Positions 938 to 45,185 of a stretch of 64,000 nucleotides of DNA are shown piece by piece. Made by a program: the position numbers and the translations under genes. Each line of letters starts with the position of its first letter. Positions within the stretch are counted from its first letter, which is position 1. Under the pieces are notes generated by a model. It saw nothing but the letters and a program-made list of their open reading frames with translations. It searched no databases and was not told where the DNA came from. Location: assembly GCA_964016885.1 (NCBI GenBank), contig OZ024755.1, forward strand, positions 4,340,001-4,404,000. The letters are read 5' to 3'. The DNA is from Eledone cirrhosa (lineage: Eukaryota).

Positions 938-987
938 TCTTGTTACTCTGGAGTTTCGCCTACTTTTCACAGGGTCATCAGACAAGA
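938..987 (-). ncRNA. Type I hammerhead ribozyme motif (complete core)
   Basis: Minus strand reads UCUUGU-CUGAUGA-C.CCUG(UGAAAAG)UAGG.C-GAAA-CUC(CA)GAG-UA-ACAAGA. It has a 6-bp stem I, both conserved core boxes, stem II, a short stem III and a GUA cleavage triplet. Confidence 0.8.
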
Positions 988-4090: not shown

Positions 4091-5003
4091 GCTTGTTCTT
4101 TTGTGGTCATTCTTATAATAACTGACCAGTTCTTGATTTGGTGAAGAAATATGTCTTTAACACTGAGGGTAGAATATTACAGGAGATACGACTCCCAAAT
4201 AGTCAATATCCTTAGAAGTTGAAGTAGTTAATGTGATATTTTGAAGGATACAACACATCGCCATCACACGTGGTAATGGTGCGAGCGTGTTGGCTTCCCT
4301 CAAAGTGTTTAGTTAACCCCTAAGATGTGAGGTACGGCCGACTGTTGCATTTGATGGTAAACTGTACCCCCCCCACACACACACCTTTTTTGCCTTTATC
4401 ATTATTGTTCAATGAGTTATACAAATGCTATTTTCATAGTAAAATTTTATAAACAGAAAACAAATATGAGGACTTGACAACCACGTGATTTTGGGGTCTG
4501 TCCATAGATTAACTCATTAATGCCTTGTGGGTGGAAAGTGTCACTAGTGTAATTAGTTACTATGTAGCAGTATTCTATTGTGGCTCTCACCTGAGCTTGA
4601 ATAAGGTTAGTATATTGGTGTGGGGTGTAAGTGGAACCCTAGCAGCACAAAAATAAGAGTTGTTAAAAGTGTGTGGAGGGGGATGAACTTCTCAGAGTCA
4701 ACAGCCATCCATCCCAACTATGGATTAAATAACCTCACCAATCTACAATTGGCCAAGTGTAGTAAATATGGCTACACTCTTGACATGACTAAACACCAAA
4801 CAGAAAGCAGTGCAGTTCAACCAGGGAGGGGTTCCTCCGACAGGATTAGACTAGATATATATATATGAGTCTCAGGTACAGTCGAGGGTAACCACAGTAA
4901 GTAAGGTACTCAATACATTAGTAGAATGTAAATATCATGTTTAATATAGAAATCATCAGGAAAACTTTCTAGTCCATTAGAAACTATTTCTATATTAAAC
5001 ATG

Positions 5004-16000: not shown

Positions 16001-19000
16001 TTGAATGTAACCACTCAAAATACGCAAGCATGGAAAAACTGGCGTAAAAATGATGATGATTTCATATTTTAATTTAACCCTTTAGCATTTACATTACTCT
16101 GTATATACTATTGTATTTTTGTGGTTACGGTTTTATCTTACATAATTATTCACATAATATCGAATTTATGAGATTTTGATGTTATTTATTTTGAGAACAA
16201 TACTTTAACATCAGTATGAGTGGCCAGTTACAGCCAGTTTGAACCGAAAGAAGTGAGAGAATTCTGGCCGGATATGGCTGGTTTAAATGCTAAAGGGTTA
16301 AATTGGAAACTTTTAAAATGGGTAGTTTTATTTCATAAAACCAGAGCTGGTTTTGGCTGGGTTGGTAACTAAAGGGTTAAATCCTTTCATTTAGATTTGG
16401 AATTTTGATTTTCCTTGCATTTGTACCACTTGTAAAACACTTGGCAGTAATACTTGGTTATTGTCTATATTATTATCAGATATTTTCAATATTTTTGCTA
16501 TTATGATTATATATATTCATCCCTGTAAACTTGGATTAAATACATCTGTTTAGTCACATTCTGTATAATTCCATTGGTGTACAATGTTTACTTTAAACAG
16601 ATGAGCTTTGTTTACACAGCCTAGGTACTATTTAACTGTGGAAAGATTGTTTTATTAGGACAGATGTTATTTTATACATTTGGATCTACTAGCTGGGTTG
16701 TGCCAGTATGAAATACAGAGTGTATAAGTGTATAAAACCTGAGGGATAAGATCTGAAATTACTTTGAAGATGAGACACAGGTGTGGTGTTCTGTGGGTGA
16801 GAGCAGTCTGAGGTGATAGGTGAGGTAGAGCAATAATATATGAGGTATAACATGGACAACTGACCAATAATTACAAAGACATAGAAGACATCTTGTGCTA
16901 ACTAGACAATAAAGCCCAAAATTTCCAGTGTTTTTCTCTGGTTCTTGATAAATTAACCCTTTATTGTAAGTCAGTATTCTCTAGTAACTAGTTAATATTG
17001 GTGAGGAATGCTACAGTTTGTTGTCAGTATTCTCTGTAGGTGGTAGTTACCAACAGTAGTTAGTTAATATTGGTGAGGAATGGTACAGTTTGTTGTAAGT
17101 CAGTATTCTTTGTAGGTGGTAGTTACCAAAACTAACTAGTTAATAACAGTAAAATGGTAATTATTGTGCTGTCCCTCCAAAAGTTGTGACTTCATCTCTT
17201 CTCAGAGATTTATATGTATTTGTTTATTTATTTTCAGGAATGATAGTGAGAAAAGAAGAATTTGGTTCTATGAATCTGGCTTTCTTGCTGGTGTGTCTTT
17301 TCTAATCTATTTATTGGATCATACCCCTTATTTGCTGTGGCTTCTTACATTTTGCACCTTCCTTTTCACCCAATTGATTGGGCAGCTCCATTTACTTTAC
17401 TGGTGGAATCTTCTTAAAACAAGATGGGATGAACACTTACAACACCAGGAAAGTTTAGAAAGACTACAAAATAATTCTACCATTTCACCAATGCCTGCAG
17501 CACCTTCACCAGCTGTTACCAATCGAGGAGTTTCTGGAATTGCCCAACCTTATTCTGGCCATCAAATGGTACCACAACAACCTTCAGTAAGCAACTATGA
17601 TCATCTGCTCCCAAATACTTCTGCTGTCATTTCACAATATGGACACAAATCAGTCAACCTTTCTAGCCAACAAGCTGCCTATTTAGGACCTCACTACTCT
17701 GATAACCACTTTCTCCCTCAGCAAAAACATTTGCTCATTCACCCTAATCAGCCCTGTGGCAGTCCTCCTGTATACTTTCCTGAGAATGTAACTGTGTGTC
17801 CCAACACTATTACTCAAAATACTGTTGGAACACTCTGGCCTCAGAATATGAGACGCCGACCCCTACGACCTAGTGTCTTAAGAAGTGCTTCCCCATTTCC
17901 TCTTGTCTCCGCTTCTCAGCATGACACCAAAACTGTAAGGGAATTTTCATTTAAAGACAAGCTGCTCTCTTCCTTTGGTTTCACACCAAAAAATCCACCT
18001 GGTCTGGAAAATGATGGCCAAAACTTATGTTTTATGAATTGCATATTGCAGTGCTTAGCTAGAAGCCCACACTTGGTTAGTCAGCTGTTGAGAGTTAACA
18101 TAGAAAATATCCCAAATGTAAATAAGGAAGAAAAGCAGTTTCTTTCTGAATTTGTCAAAATCTTAAACAAATGCTCTGCTGAATCACAGACAAGAATGTC
18201 TGTAGTGGACACAGAGCCGTTAAAATTAGCCTCTCAAATGATGAAATGTAGTCTCCTGACTGAACATACTCAACAAGATGCTGCTGAATTTCTTATGTGG
18301 CTCCTAACAACAACTCATAACATCTTAAACAAAATTCATCTAAACAAAGGTGAGGAATGTTTCTGGCAAATTTATAGACATATATCTGCATCGCCATAAT
18401 TCTTTTTCTAACTGACTACTTTGTTTATACAGAGATATTGTGTGAACCTATTTGTTGAGCAGTAGTCATTGTTTTTGTAACTTATTGCCCTGTAACTGAA
18501 ATAATTCAATCATTGAAAATAATCTCTACATGTTCAATATAAAATATGTGAGAAATGTTTCACATTTATTACTATTATTTCACATTGAAATATTTATTTT
18601 CTTTCTAACAGTTAATTAATTAATCTCTACAGTATTTCATGTAGTTTTATTCCCAAATAGAGTATTTCAGATTATTTAACTGTTTCACTATATTTATTGA
18701 AATTGTTTGTTATTTATTTTGCTTGTGTGTGTTTCCTTGAATGTGCAACTTACTTAGACTTAGGAGCTCCCATGTCTTGAGACACATGAGGCAGCTAAAG
18801 TGCTCCCATGACCACGGCTAGTTCCATCTATCAATACATTGTTCCAACTTTACTTAGACTTATGAGCTCCCACATCTTGAGACACAGAGGCAGCTAAAGT
18901 TCTCCAATGACCACGGTCAGTTGCATCTATCAATACATTGTTCCTACTTTTGTTGACGGGTTTCAGGTCTCTGTCAATTGTTTGCTGCCAATTCATCTTG

Positions 19001-21995
19001 GGACGCTCTCATCACTTCTTTCCATGGAGGTACCAACAGAAGACCTGATTAGTATGTCTCTCACTTGGGAGTCGTATGACATGTCCCAACCAGCCAAGTC
19101 GACACTGGCACATATTTGACATGTATATTCTTTATTTAATATTTGACTTTAGCATTCCACATACAAATGTATTAGTTACTACTACACGGTAGGGAGAGAG
19201 GTCTAGTATCATTCATTAAGTTTTTCAATGTTTTAAATAGCATTTACTTTCGTAGTCTTGGAGGGTGAGGGACTAAAAACAACTGAAAGACAGATTAAAT
19301 GGAAAATAATTAAAGCTATCCTAATTAATTTACGTTTTGTCTGTGTCTGTAACAATAAACGGAGTTTTACAGAATCATCCACACAGGCAAGCTATAATAA
19401 AACTCAATATAAAATCACATGACAGCTGACAATTAGTCACATTCTTACTATTTATAAAAACAATTCAAATTTGACCCTGTTTTATTTTTTTAAATCATAC
19501 CTTTCTACATGTACTGAGATGACCTAATTAGTTTAAAGAATTCTCTATTGAGAGATGAGTAACAAATACAGAGGAATATAGAAGTGTATGTTGGTTTGCT
19601 GATATATGTAGACTAATGTTTAGAGTGGAGTTTCTTCTTCTGGGAATAAATATTATTAAGTGGTAGTAATGTGTCTAGGTGGAGGTGCATGGCTTAGTGG
19701 TAAAGGTGTTGGACTTACAATCATAATGTGGATTTGATTCCTGGACTGGGTTGGGTGTTGTGTTCTTGAGAAAAACACTTCATTTCACATTGCTCCAGTA
19801 TACTTGTCTGAAATTGAGTACCAGCAATAGCTGGAGATTTAACCCTGCGATGGACTGGCAACTTGTCCAGGGGAATGTCTTGTACTCTGTCGTTTCACAT
19901 CAAGGTAATTGAGATAAGTACCGGCCTGATGAACTTCTAGGCTTGAGGCAGACTTTAAACTTTTAAACTTTAATGTGTCAAGAATACAAATGTTTGAAGT
20001 TGAAGCTTTGCATCTGATTATAATCAAAGATATAAAATGACCCTGAAATAACAGATATAGTGAAATATTTAGGTTGAAGACTTGGCATGATTTAGCTAGG
20101 GTCACTTCCAGTAAGTTGGTGTAATCATAAAAATTTATTTTCTTCAGTTTATGGGGAAAACAAGATGAATTCCAAAGCTGCAAACCAGAATGATTTATAT
20201 AATGAATTATCTGTGGAAAATATACAAAAGTTAAAAGTTGCCTACAAAGAAAAGGTAAATGTCGTTTCAGTTTTTTTGGTAGTTTTGTAAATTGTTAGAC
20301 ATTTGGTGTGTAAAGATGCAACTCTTCCAGACTTAAAAGATGTAAAAAATTATATTAAAAAGTTGCTGTTGAGTAGTTAATAAAGCTGTTTCTGGTAAAA
20401 ACCTACCATTTTTAGTAATATTAAAAATATATTTCAAAATTTGCAAATAAAAAAAAAAATTATTTTACATAAAATACTCCTGTATTGAAAAAGATGATAG
20501 TTTTTTTTTACTATAATCCCTCTCAATGGCCTCACTAACCTGGTTAGAGCATTCTCAATAAAGTAAATATATCCACACTGTAAATATGGTTGATCTTTGG
20601 AAGGGCATCCAGTCATAGAAATCAAGCCCAAATCAGTCCAGTATGAGCAAGACATGGTCATCTGATCTGGCTTGGCTCACAACGAGACAATTCCTCTAAC
20701 CCATGCTAGTGTGGGAAAATGGCCGTTAAACAGTGATGATGATGATGTATATATTAATGTTTTGTTGGTGACACGTGATATAGTCTCGGTGTTTAACCTT
20801 TTAGCATTTAAACTGGTCCTATCCGGCCAGAATTCCTTCACCTCCTTCTTTTCAAACCGGTTGTAACCAGCCACTCATACTGAGGTTAAGGTATTGTTCA
20901 CAAAATAAATATGAAAATCTCATAGATTTGATATGTGAGGTAAAGCATCTACCGTGAAAATATAATAGTAAATATAGAGTAATGTAAATGGTAAAAGGTT
21001 AAACATTTTTTAAATTCTGTTTACATACGCTTTTTCTTTCTTTCTTTTTTTCGTTTTAGATTGACAAGCTGAACAGCTTTGATACAGAAGCTTATGCAGA
21101 GTTAGCACAGCATTTATCTGATTTAGATTGGTATGCTTACAAAAATGAGAATTCTTCTATCATAGATAATCTCTTCACTGGTCAGTTACTAGAAGCTTAT
21201 AATTGTAACCGCAAAGGACATCTAACTATACAACCACAGACTTTTGCTGTTTTACCAATTCCAATTGGGGAATCTATATCAGACTGCAGTATATATCTTG
21301 AAGATTGTTTCACCATTTTTAGTAGTGTAGAACAACTTTCTGGTCAAGTATGTTCTCGCTGTTCTAAAGGGAATTCTGTTCATTCAAGTCCTACTGTGAG
21401 CACCCCTCTATCATACATCCCTCCTTGTGTAAACATCCAGACACTTCCTGCATTTCATATGGGTGGTTCATTCATGTCTCCCATTGTCAGCAACAAATCA
21501 GACAACAGTTTTTCATCTCATAGTGTTCGGACTTCAACTCCACGTTTTTATGCAGGGACATGTGATGGAATGTTACAAGATAAACAGACTATTGATCGAC
21601 GCTGTCTTCTTCATCAACTTCCAGAATGCCTTATTATTCAGCTATTACGCTTTACCTTTGATTCAAAGACTAAAAATACTAAGAAGATAACAACTCCTGT
21701 TGACATTACACTTTCAGGTTTGGACTTGAAAGACATAGTCTTTAACTTAAAATCAAATAAGAGTAGCTGCAATACAGTAGATCCTACTCATAAATATAAT
21801 CTGTATGGTATGTGTGTTCATTTGAGTTCATGTGGCACAACTAGTGGTCACTATATTTGCTATTGTCTGGACAGTAATGGAAAGTGGTATAAATTTGATG
21901 ATGACACTGTATGTGATGTAGATATGCAATATGAGTTGTCAACTCGAACAATTAATGAGAATGCATATCTGTTATTTTATAAGAAAGCCAGGTGA
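12571..21995 (+). CDS. Ubiquitin carboxyl-terminal hydrolase (USP/peptidase C19) with N-terminal hydrophobic segment, about 755 aa
   Basis: Exons 12571-12683 (tentative first exon, phase-compatible), 17238-18349, 20148-20254 and 21060-21995 give one open frame. Motifs: Cys box GLENDGQNLCFMNCILQCL, QQDAAEFL, SIIDNLFTGQL, LPECLIIQLLRF, His box GHYICYC..WYKFDD and terminal AYLLFY. Confidence 0.9.
15344..15560 (+). mobile_element. piggyBac-like MITE (TTAA-CCCTTTAGCATTT termini)
   Basis: About 210-230 bp family with TIRs CCCTTTAGCATTTA flanked by TTAA; at least 11 copies in the window. Confidence 0.7.
16074..16301 (-). mobile_element. piggyBac-like MITE
   Basis: TTAACCCTTTAGCATTTA...TAAATGCTAAAGGGTTAA, opposite orientation to the 15344 copy. 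Confidence 0.8.
18746..19115 (-). mobile_element. RTE-clade LINE 3' fragment with duplicated ~100-bp 3' end
   Basis: Minus-strand decayed translation WLGHVIRLP...RPKMNWQQTIDRDL; TAAG-like tail; 18746-18845 is repeated at 18846-18944. Confidence 0.6.
19680..19960 (+). mobile_element. tRNA-derived SINE with CORE-like domain
   Basis: TGGCTTAGTGG A-box, TTTGATTCC B-box, CTTGAG..AAACACTTCATTTCACATTGCTCCAG core. Homologs lie at about 24485-24770(-), 27860, 33230, 47395-47540(-) and 49668-49930. Confidence 0.7.
20793..21002 (+). mobile_element. piggyBac-like MITE
   Basis: Same family as 16074-16301, TTAA at both ends. Confidence 0.7.
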
Positions 21996-26083: not shown

Positions 26084-31095
<5,012 letters not shown>

Positions 31096-42552: not shown

Positions 42553-43311
42553 CTTTGTGATGTGCGGCCGATTATCACACTTGGTGAATTTGTTCCTTTC
42601 TCTTGCTCTGATCGTATATTTTGGTGTGTTATATTTATGAGGTTCCTAGCAATAGTTAATTGTATTTATTAGATATGTTTATATTTTCATTTTGAAAGAA
42701 TTGGGAACAATTTGTAATGTTATTTATAGTCACTCTACTAATGTATTGAGTGCTTTACTTACTGAGGTTACCCCTGATTGAACCCGGGACTCATATCTGT
42801 GTGTGTGTTGTAACTAGAGAGTCCAGTGTTTGTTTATAGTTGTTAAGTTATCAGGTTTCCAATTAGAATGACTCATGTGTACGGTGCCCCTACCTAAGAA
42901 ACTCTACCCGGCTCCATGTGTTTGTGATAGCTATAGCAACCATATCGTCCTCTGTCTTCTTTTAATGACAATAAAATGAAAATATCTCGCTGGATACATT
43001 TCACCGCTCTCTCTATCTCTCTGACACACACGGCCGGATTTAAGGGGAGGGCAATTGTCCCGGGCCCCTACAGTAGAGGGAGCTGCAACAGCGATGACTT
43101 TAGTAATTTATTTGTGCCCACAGCTGGGCTTTTTAGTTTTAGGGTGGTTAGAATGTTTGAATTTAATACCTGTATGTATAACTTTTCAATTCCAATTAAT
43201 TGCACCAAGCTAACTTTGATATGTAAAATTAGGGGATTTGCTAAGTATTCTAATGTGCCCCGAGCCCTTCAGGGTCTAAACCCAACCCTGCTCTCTCACA
43301 CACACGATACA

Positions 43312-43342
<31 letters not shown>

Positions 43343-44349
43343 TATATATATATATATATAGTAATAATAATAAAAGCAGCGATTCTTTGCTTAAACTTTA
43401 ATCTGTTATTTTAATAAATATATATATATATATAAGTCTGTCTGTCTCTCTGTCTGTCACACTAACGCAGAAACCTAACCATTTTTAACTCTAAAGTTCA
43501 TGTATATATATATATACAAAGTGTTAAAACGATCAAATTTTAGTTTAGAACATTTATTTGCTGGCAATTGTTTCTTCCAGAGGGAAGTCTGGATTCATCG
43601 GAGCATAAGGAATGTCGAAACATGTAACTAAAATCCTAGTCATTTAGAACATTTAGGGTAGATAATTGTTATTAGTGTCAAAAGCATCATGTGGAGAGTC
43701 ACGAGTTAAAAAGATGTTCTGCTTGAAAGAACACAATTACAGGCAGCACTGGTTGGAAGTGTAATAGGTATAAGTAAAAATCACAAGCAAAAAAAAAAAC
43801 ACAGGCAAAAAAGTTATAAGCAAGGACAATTGGTGTACAATGCAGGAGTCAATACAGTCAATATATATATATATATATTTTAAAATCATTTTTGAAACTA
43901 ATGTTTCCATCTTTATATTTTATTATATTTGTTCTGTGTCCAACCTTTTCTCCCTAAAAATAATCTACCTTTTCTTCAGACCAAATATATATAAACACGT
44001 CGAGCTAATCCTGAAACTACATGGCGATTATATTATGAGGAGTGTTTGATTATTTCGACACCTCGCCATCCCCCGTAGTAATGTTGCCAGGGTGTTGGTT
44101 TGCCTTAAACGTTTCTGTTAAATTTTCTGGTGTGGTGTGATCGGTTGTCGCACTTGCTGGTGAAATGATGGTTGTTTTTGTTTCCTCTATTTTTTTTGTT
44201 GTGTTTATATTTTCATTCTGTAAAAATTATAAACAAGACGACTGTGAATAATAAAATATTGGTTTAATATATATATATATATATCGGGGGTAACCACAGT
44301 AAGTAAGGTACTCAATACAAAGCAGAGTATTAATATTTGATATAGAAAA

Positions 44350-44400
44350 GGCTTCTACAGGACTAGAACTGTTTCATTCGGGAGAAATCATCAGGAAGCC
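44350..44400 (-). ncRNA. Type I hammerhead ribozyme motif (complete core)
   Basis: GGCUUC-CUGAUGA-U.UUC(UCCC)GAA.U-GAAA-CAG(UUCUAGUC)CUG-UA-GAAGCC, with a perfect 6-bp stem I, 3-bp stems II and III, and a GUA triplet. Confidence 0.82.
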
Positions 44401-44459
44401 GACTGTCCAAGTAATATGGTATATATATATATATATATATTGTTAACTTAGTTGAGCAG

Positions 44460-45185
44460 TGAAAGCACACATCTGGCCCTCAACAGTCTGTTAGCTAGTG
44501 TCACCTTAGCTGAGGTCTGAAAACACACATCTGGCCCTCAACAGTCCGTTAGCTAGTGTCACCTTAGCTGAGGTCTGAAAACACAAATCTGGCCCTCAAC
44601 AGTCCGTTAGCTAATGTCACCTTAGCTGAGGTCTGAAAACACACATCTGGCCCTCAACAGTCTGTTAGCTAGTGTCACCTTAGCTGAGGTCTGAAAACAC
44701 AAATCTGGCCCTCAACAGTCCGTTAGCTAGTGCCACCTTAGCTGAGGTCTGAAAACACAAATCTGGCCCTCAACAGTCCGTTAGCTAGTGTCACCTTAGC
44801 TGAGGTCTGAAAACACACATCTGGCCCTCAACAGTCTGTTAGCTAGTGTCACCTTAGCTGAGGTCTGAAAACACACATCTGGCCCTCAACAGTCTGTTAG
44901 CTAGTGTCACCTTAGCTGAGGTCTGAAAACACACATCTGGCCCTCAACAGTCTGTTAGCTAGTGTCACCTTAGCTGAGGTCTGAAAACACACATCTGGCC
45001 CTCAACAGTCCGTTAGCTAATGTCACCTTAGCTGAGGTCTGAAAATACACATCTGGCCCTCAACAGTCTGTTAGCTAGTGTCACCTTAGCTCCTCAACAG
45101 TCTGTTAGCTAGTGTCACCTTAGCTGAGGTCTGAAAACACACATCTCGCCTTCAACAGTCCGTTAGCTAGTGTCACCTTAGCTAA
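44460..45185. repeat. 58-bp tandem array (about 12 units plus a partial unit)
   Basis: AAACACACATCTGGCCCTCAACAGTC(T/C)GTTAGCTAGTGTCACCTTAGCTGAGGTCTGA; a deletion-type partial unit lies near 45090. Confidence 0.95.

What the first reader, a model, noticed from the sequence alone, without database searches (positions are those of the whole stretch)
44286..44420. Best-preserved ribozyme element, with three relatives in the window
A ~135-bp unit flanked on both sides by (TA)n, with an intact hammerhead at 44350-44400. Relatives lie at 4866-4960, 30508-30628 and 42733-42793 (opposite strand). Between this and the 30.6-kb copy, loop II changes (UCCC versus AUAC) while the stem II and III nucleotides are identical, as expected for a structured RNA. 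Four copies in 64 kb suggest a very high genomic copy number (inference).
Basis: partly seen in the sequence, partly recalled or inferred. Interest (0 to 1): 0.75.

Follow-up and report, generated by a model that had tools for sequence, protein, structure and literature searches.

The report
Hammerhead caps a Penelope retroelement RNA

Summary
The three relatives are real, but none keeps an intact ribozyme. The 135 bp is no free-standing unit. It is a clipped piece of the terminal repeat (pLTR) of a Hydra-clade Penelope-like retrotransposon: the same repeat is joined to RT and endonuclease coding DNA at three loci. The genome holds 24,101 exact cores with a free loop II and two compensatory stem I pairs. 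The odd U.U closing pair is already tabulated for Hydra elements. The scan found this class before on other DNA of this genome. New here: copies start sharply at stem I nucleotide 1-2 (37 of 49 sampled copies of this subfamily start within 7 nt of the core), 30 nt after a TATA box. In a sister subfamily an extra G precedes that start in 1,304 of 1,643 copies lacking the templated C. This points to a capped RNA beginning with the hammerhead and copied uncut to its 5' end. Cleavage and the start site are untested.

The parts
44350..44400 (-). Type I hammerhead motif: stem I arms 44400-44395 and 44355-44350, core CUGAUGA 44394-44388, stem II 44387-44376 (U10.1.U11.1, loop UCCC), GAAA 44375-44372, stem III with palindromic CUAG loop 44371-44357, A17 at 44356
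44400..44400 (-). First nucleotide of stem I; inferred transcription start of the parent element (30 nt after its TATA box; modal 5' end of family copies)
44401..44420 (-). 20 nt of pLTR between the parent's TATA box and stem I; this copy breaks off at the TATA box, which is replaced by (TA)n
44284..44349 (-). Sequence after the cut: the family's short end (about +20, near 44336) and most of the 69-nt tail; this copy stops about 17 nt before the usual long end (+89). In full elements this is the leader before the ORF
44267..44284 (.). (TA)n target, 3' flank
44420..44439 (.). (TA)n target, 5' flank
30509..30628 (-). Relative of the loop-AUAC subfamily; begins inside stem I (run-off type), core A6 changed to G, predicted inactive
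4866..5003 (.). Two-armed decayed relative: long-end tail on the minus strand joined to an inverted short-end arm; no complete ribozyme
42732..42793 (+). Tail-only relative, no ribozyme

Best explanation
The element is a truncated copy of the hammerhead-bearing terminal repeat (pLTR) of a Hydra-clade Penelope-like retrotransposon inserted in a (TA)n tract, and the parent's RNA likely starts, capped, at the first base of the hammerhead. Shown: the repeat is joined to RT and GIY-YIG endonuclease coding DNA; copies have two preferred 3' ends 69 nt apart, one sharp 5' end at stem I nucleotide 1-2, 30 nt after a TATA box, and often an extra G there; copies span the cut site. Inferred mechanism: RNA polymerase II starts at stem I; the element's protein nicks (TA)n DNA and primes cDNA at two internal RNA sites about 20 and 89 nt past the cut site; the RT runs through the uncut ribozyme to the cap and stops, giving 65- and 135-nt insertions, often as a head-to-head pair with one long and one short arm. 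Longer copies, including this one (20 nt beyond the start), would come from the downstream pLTR of a read-through RNA. Cleavage, probably as a dimer or with protein help, would remove a 45-nt capped leader from the mRNA and so act as a switch on translation or RNA fate rather than as a step that makes the template. Odds: PLE pLTR 0.93; RNA 5' end at stem I about 0.8; capped Pol II start about 0.7; cleaves in vivo about 0.55.
For: ORF link: 6 of 9 fetched long-ORF loci carry a 72-79% identical pLTR with the homologous hammerhead directly before the ORF. For the finding's own subfamily, L036 continues from the tail into the RT N-terminus (63% aa), L111 has the endonuclease C-terminus upstream (70-84% aa), and L100 has residues 149-714 upstream with another element inserted between. 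Hydra motifs RW(R), DKT, CxCx5C, CxxC, CxH are present (definition in PMC8557442). 3' ends: 14 short, 10 long, 5 other among 29 copies picked on upstream sequence (hand count); 21 of 27 head-to-head pairs are long plus short; same pattern as the two RT start sites shown in vitro for a Poseidon PLE (PMC11167929). 5' ends: 37 of 49 UCCC-loop copies start within 7 nt of CUGAUGA, 18 exactly at stem I nt 1, and 12 of those 18 have G before it (hand count) where the template has C; 34 of 58 in the sister subfamily; TATA at -30 in both. G at -1 in 1,304 of 1,643 sister-subfamily copies lacking the templated C; none of the 7 run-on copies in the first 100 listed had G (hand count). Untemplated 5' G is read as cap copying in L1 and SVA (PMC4859970 passages). 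Only 4 of 378 pieces start at the cut site, all at stem I microhomology with an inverted partner. Structure: stem I pair 4 C-G 55 / A-U 43 and pair 6 A-U 49 / G-C 46 of 116 copies; loop II free, core fixed.
Against: No RNA data: the runs found were contigs, and 2 of 2 RNA-guessed runs laid gave no cover. Part of the G excess can come from the inverted partner or from (GA)n (about 21 of the 80 G cases's list, hand count), and RTs add untemplated bases at any template end, so G marks an RNA end better than a cap. In the finding's subfamily stem I starts with GG, so its G signal is ambiguous. The covariation rests on about two events between subfamilies; stems II and III show none. The 378 pieces were mostly fetched for having a ribozyme core, so starts at the cut site are undercounted. 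Only 12 of 29 unbiased copies keep core and stems, so most genomic copies are decaying. Drosophila Penelope has a TATA-less internal promoter (PMC2377424 passages), unlike the promoter inferred here. The window copy itself does not start at the inferred start site.
Confidence: 0.75

Rival explanations
1. A non-autonomous retrozyme or SINE-like 135-nt unit that self-cleaves into small linear or circular RNAs.
For: Most copies are short, non-coding and carry the motif. Metazoan retrozymes with type I hammerheads exist and are thought to use PLE proteins (PMC7229834 passages).
Against: The repeat is joined to Hydra ORF sequence on both sides. Among the 30 best copies only L002 shows a partial direct repeat; neighbours are inverted pairs. 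Copy ends do not match the cut site. Short copies lack the TATA box.
Confidence: 0.07
2. Same element, but the sharp 5' end comes from RT stalling or cDNA fold-back at stem I, not from an RNA end.
For: Some junctions use the 6-nt stem I self-complementarity (4 cases; several's list). The start mode is split between nt 1 and 2.
Against: The RT meets the 3' arm of stem I first, so a stall at the far end of the 5' arm is unexpected (inference). It explains neither the extra G (13 G versus 3 A/T where the flank is (TA)n-like, hand count) nor the TATA box at -30 kept across subfamilies whose spacer has diverged.
Confidence: 0.15
3. The template is a circle made by cleavage at two hammerheads and ligation; RT primed past the junction crosses it and gives copies that span the cut site.
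For: Proposed for PLEs (PMC4209133 discussion). It explains long copies that carry tail plus upstream pLTR without read-through.
Against: A circle has no 5' end at stem I nt 1, so it cannot give the dominant short class. In vitro, ribozyme mutants did not affect insertion by a Poseidon PLE (PMC11167929). It may still apply to the long class.
Confidence: 0.15
4. The motif is kept as a protein-binding or promoter structure and no longer cleaves.
For: U.U instead of G10.1-C11.1, only 3 bp in stem II, weak folding; templates were uncut.
Against: All catalytic core bases and the GUA site are kept across subfamilies while position 7, loop II and the upstream spacer vary. U10.1-U11.1 is reported as the best-tolerated mismatch (PMC3088659 passage).
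Confidence: 0.25

Closest known systems
Hydra clade of Penelope-like elements, including Hydra-1_Obim (Craig et al. 2021, PMC8557442; outline, section 11, passages and supplement parts 1-2 plus search excerpts read)
   Same: Single RT plus C-terminal GIY-YIG ORF, RWK-like, DKT, CxCx5C, CxxC and CxH motifs, (TA)n targeting, type I hammerhead in the pLTR, tail and inverted truncated partners. 14 of 25 Hydra families in File S2 have the same U..U closure of stem II (hand count).
   Different: A different family: Hydra-1_Obim's hammerhead has another sequence and a 7-bp stem II. Loop III here is 8 nt against 1-3 nt in the table. The 3' UTR holds 0.5-1.5 kb of TG/TA repeats. No start site or cap signature was seen in the passages read.
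Poseidon_Ac of Anolis (Frangieh et al. 2024, PMC11167929; parts 1-2 of 4 read)
   Same: Two internal RT start sites downstream of the hammerhead define the tail; AT-rich targets; both strands extended; uncut RNA is the template; ribozyme needs protein.
   Different: Other PLE clade; its cut lies inside the ORF, here about 135 nt before the first ATG. The text read gives no in vivo RNA 5' end.
Minimal PLE hammerheads (Cervera and de la Pena 2014, PMC4209133; parts 1-2 of 4 read)
   Same: Type I, in pLTRs, palindromic loop III, low or dimer-dependent activity expected.
   Different: Those have G10.1-C11.1, long stem II and almost no stem III; this has U.U, 3 bp in stem II and a 4-bp stem III.
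Metazoan non-LTR retrozymes (Cervera and de la Pena 2020, PMC7229834; passages read)
   Same: Type I hammerhead in a dispersed animal repeat.
   Different: Those are non-coding tandem units of a few hundred nt that give circles; this is part of a coding element and occurs singly or as inverted pairs.
Cap copying by L1 and SVA (PMC4859970, passages read); LTR strong-stop DNA (recalled)
   Same: Untemplated G at the RNA 5' end; priming near the RNA 5' end with run-off.
   Different: Here the run-off product is itself inserted, in thousands of copies; priming is inferred to be on nicked target DNA, not tRNA.

Membership tests
Hammerhead ribozyme, type I | Core C3 U4 G5 A6 N7 G8 A9, G12 A13 A14 A15, U16 H17 | tested here: met
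   Window copy complete; each fixed position holds in at least 111 of 116 copies (the 3' half was part of the anchor used to collect them)
Hammerhead ribozyme, type I | Three stems, stem I open | tested here: met
   6, 3 and 4 bp; 95.5% of cells paired versus 30-46% when slid; two compensatory pairs, in stem I only (17 hand-picked rows)
Hammerhead ribozyme, type I | Paired 10.1-11.1 (usually G-C) | tested here: not met
   U.U in the family; a known natural variant, so not disqualifying
Hammerhead ribozyme, type I | Rfam model match | tested here: not met
   No hammerhead hit
Hammerhead ribozyme, type I | Self-cleavage | not testable with these tools
   Needs an in vitro assay
Penelope-like element, Hydra clade | Single ORF, RT then GIY-YIG endonuclease | tested here: met
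   714 aa from Met with YRDD, VYKC and YIG in the sister subfamily; broken pieces joined to the finding's subfamily. Pfam gave no RT hit
Penelope-like element, Hydra clade | RWK, DKT, CxCx5C linker, CxxC and CxH | tested here: met
   RWR 38, DKT 116, CNCLNKEAC 567, CDLC 667, CMH 695
Penelope-like element, Hydra clade | pLTR with hammerhead, optional tail, inverted truncated partner, (TA)n target | tested here: met
Penelope-like element, Hydra clade | RT phylogeny inside the Hydra clade | not tested
   Only compared by eye with published Hydra proteins
Non-LTR retrozyme | Non-coding head-to-tail units bounded by hammerheads | tested here: not met
   Joined to ORF; inverted pairs, not tandem arrays
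Non-LTR retrozyme | Abundant circular monomer RNA | not testable with these tools
   Only contigs available

The most novel reading that the evidence does not exclude
In Hydra-clade PLEs the hammerhead is the capped 5' end of the element's mRNA. Transcription starts at stem I nucleotide 1, the RT primes just downstream and inserts strong-stop-like run-off cDNAs with a copied cap by the thousand, and ribozyme cleavage acts as a self-decapping switch between template and message. This would explain both why PLE hammerheads are conserved yet dispensable for insertion and why single short ribozyme copies litter animal genomes.
Probability: 0.45. Interest if true: 0.7.

Novelty: new member of a known kind. 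Interest (0 to 1): 0.48.

Why it matters
The role of hammerheads in Penelope-like elements is stated as unresolved in the papers read (PMC8557442, PMC11167929). This genome's thousands of short insertions record both ends of the template RNA at base resolution. If the RNA starts at the ribozyme, cleavage removes the cap, which turns an open question into simple tests. It also means most ribozyme islands here are promoter-less by-products rather than a separate parasite. The element class itself is known.

Tried and rejected
Rfam found nothing. Folding z-scores were uninformative. The U.U pair looked novel at first but is in Craig et al. File S2 and in Perreault et al. 2011. No Hydra endonuclease sequence lies in the window (tblastn). 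A peak of 5' ends at the cut site was sought and not found (biased sample). Sequencing runs: 11 of 14 listed had only 4% of words; the two laid (X1, X6) gave no cover and X12/X13 are contigs of unknown kind that show only high repeat depth; no conclusion on expression or insertion polymorphism. The first reference for the sister subfamily has a deletion upstream of the TATA box, so its '36 nt' class means 36 or more. The 3' ends are inflated by a few bases of flanking (TA)n. Lunse et al. 2017 (dimeric PLE hammerheads) was not held and may bear on U.U variants and on activity. Literature searches for a cap or start-site signature in PLEs and for octopus PLE ribozymes gave no paper reporting it in the listings or passages seen; subscription papers are not covered. 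The supplement of PMC8557442 was cut and only partly read.

Full report
Observation. On the minus strand, 44400-44350 reads as a type I hammerhead: stem I GGCUUC/GAAGCC, CUGAUGA, stem II of 3 bp closed by U.U with loop UCCC, GAAA, stem III of 4 bp with loop UUCUAGUC, and a GUA site cut between + positions 44356 and 44355. A strict descriptor finds it and one unrelated motif in the window, and nothing in 100 shuffles. Rfam misses it and it folds no better than shuffles. The three relatives align at 79-86%, but the 30.6-kb copy has A6 changed to G and 3 bp of stem I, the 4.9-kb copy is a decayed two-armed piece, and the 42.7-kb copy is tail only.

Copy number. The genome (3.0 Gb; octopus-like by inference from size and from similarity to published cephalopod Hydra elements) holds 1,895 exact 26-base cores with loop UCCC and 24,101 with any 4-base loop; reversed controls gave 0. 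An evenly spaced sample of 39 stretches (390 kb; one more requested stretch did not exist) had 6 loci, about 46,000 genome-wide with a wide interval. This is lower than the window suggests. Of 29 copies picked on upstream sequence only, 12 keep core and stems.

What the element is. The best 30 relatives are 95-98% identical and many run on 350 bp or more upstream into TG/TA-rich DNA. One of them had endonuclease coding sequence further upstream. Searching with it found an abundant family. Six of nine fetched long-ORF loci carry a 72-79% identical repeat with the homologous hammerhead directly before an ORF of about 714 aa from the first Met. That protein has RWR, DKT, YRDD, CxCx5C, VYKC/YIG, CxxC and CxH, the Hydra-clade marks in Craig et al. 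(PMC8557442), and resembles the published Hydra proteins by eye; Pfam gave no RT hit. The finding's own subfamily is tied to this ORF at three loci: L036 runs from the tail into the RT N-terminus, L111 and L100 carry the C-terminal part upstream. These pieces are broken, so this subfamily is an older, decaying sister.

Structure. In 116 copies that run on upstream, stem I pair 4 is C-G 55 / A-U 43 and pair 6 is A-U 49 / G-C 46, loop II and the upstream spacer vary, and the core is fixed. On 17 hand-picked variants 95.5% of cells pair, against 30-46% when slid; stems II and III show no covariation. The changes are about two events between subfamilies, so this is modest support. The U.U closure occurs in 14 of 25 Hydra families in File S2 (hand count) and is reported as the best-tolerated mismatch (PMC3088659). 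Loop III holds a CUAG palindrome; two stem III strands pair at -12.8 kcal/mol against -1.4 for the hairpin, which fits the dimer model (PMC4209133).

3' ends. Copies end at about +20 or about +89 after the cut site: 14 and 10 of 29, with 5 others (hand count), nearly always in (TA)n. Of 27 head-to-head pairs, 21 have one long and one short arm. This matches the two internal RT start sites shown in vitro for a Poseidon PLE, where uncut RNA was the template and ribozyme mutants did not matter (PMC11167929).

5' ends. Of 49 UCCC-loop copies taken in genome order, 37 start within 7 nt of CUGAUGA, 18 exactly at stem I nt 1, 2 start 8-20 nt upstream and 10 run on 35 nt or more. In the sister subfamily 34 of 58 start within 7 nt, with modes at nt 2 and 1 (four of those loci had been fetched for having G). 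A TATAAATA box begins 30 nt before stem I nt 1 in both subfamilies. The template base at -1 is C. Among sister-subfamily copies with another base there, 1,304 of 1,643 have G, in a genome whose targets are (TA)n. By hand in the first 100 listed: 80 G, 11 T, 9 A; about 21 of the G cases could come from a partner arm or (GA)n; all 7 run-on copies had A or T; 8 head-to-head pairs carry G on both arms. Untemplated G at L1 and SVA 5' ends is read as cap copying (PMC4859970). Only 4 of 378 pieces start at the cut site, all at stem I microhomology (sample biased to ribozyme-bearing copies).

Mechanism. Shown: pLTR origin, two 3' ends, one sharp 5' end, extra G, copies spanning the cut. Inferred: a capped Pol II RNA starts at stem I; target-primed cDNA starts 20 or 89 nt past the cut site and runs off at the cap; two such cDNAs at one break give the two-armed insertions; longer copies use the downstream pLTR of a read-through RNA. 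The window copy is of the longer kind, clipped at the TATA box and about 17 nt short of the long end. Cleavage would remove a 45-nt capped leader about 135 nt before the ATG. Whether this lowers or permits translation is open; 5'-UTR hammerheads of RNA viruses are reported to promote cap-independent translation (PMC13725137, abstract only). No RNA data could be obtained.

Comparison and verdict. The class is known, and earlier notes of this scan reached the same class on other DNA; two further look-ups for the cap or start-site idea and for this place returned nothing. Paper searches showed no report of a PLE RNA starting at its hammerhead; Drosophila Penelope has a TATA-less internal promoter (PMC2377424 passages), and one key paper was not held. 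New member of a known kind, with one testable mechanistic clue. Interest 0.48.

Noticed in passing
window 938-987, minus strand: A second, unrelated type I hammerhead-like motif (stem I UCUUGU/ACAAGA, GUA site, 3-4 bp stem III) between (TA)n and (CA)n; stem II is closed by C.C, so it is probably a decayed copy of another family.
   Followed up: partly
window 17161-18399 and 21060-21995, plus strand: Two long ORFs with Pfam UCH hits (E 1e-14 and 1e-30), likely exons of a ubiquitin-specific protease gene.
   Followed up: partly
window 44460-45091: 58-bp tandem array, 10.9 copies at 96% match, starting 20 bp from the element's (TA)n flank.
   Followed up: no
L093 4482-4532 and listing: A further subfamily with CUGAAGA, loop II AUCU and loop III UACUAGUC, which lengthens the palindrome to ACUAGU and would strengthen a dimer.
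   Followed up: partly
L091-L099, downstream of the ORF: The 3' UTR of the coding elements contains 1 kb or more of mixed TG/TA repeats, so the element itself may spread microsatellite-like DNA.
   Followed up: no
L122, L123, L144, L156: 4 of 39 sampled 10-kb stretches hold more distant Hydra-like ORF pieces (30-54% aa identity), so several other families are abundant.
   Followed up: no
supplement of PMC8557442, Hydra-2_Amil excerpt: By eye, a TATA-like run lies 32-34 nt before stem I in this coral element too; a lead that the start-at-hammerhead layout may be shared.
   Followed up: no
Forward matches exceed reverse matches (13,403 versus 10,698) for the any-loop pattern but not for the UCCC pattern; perhaps a tandem array of one subfamily somewhere in the assembly.
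   Followed up: no
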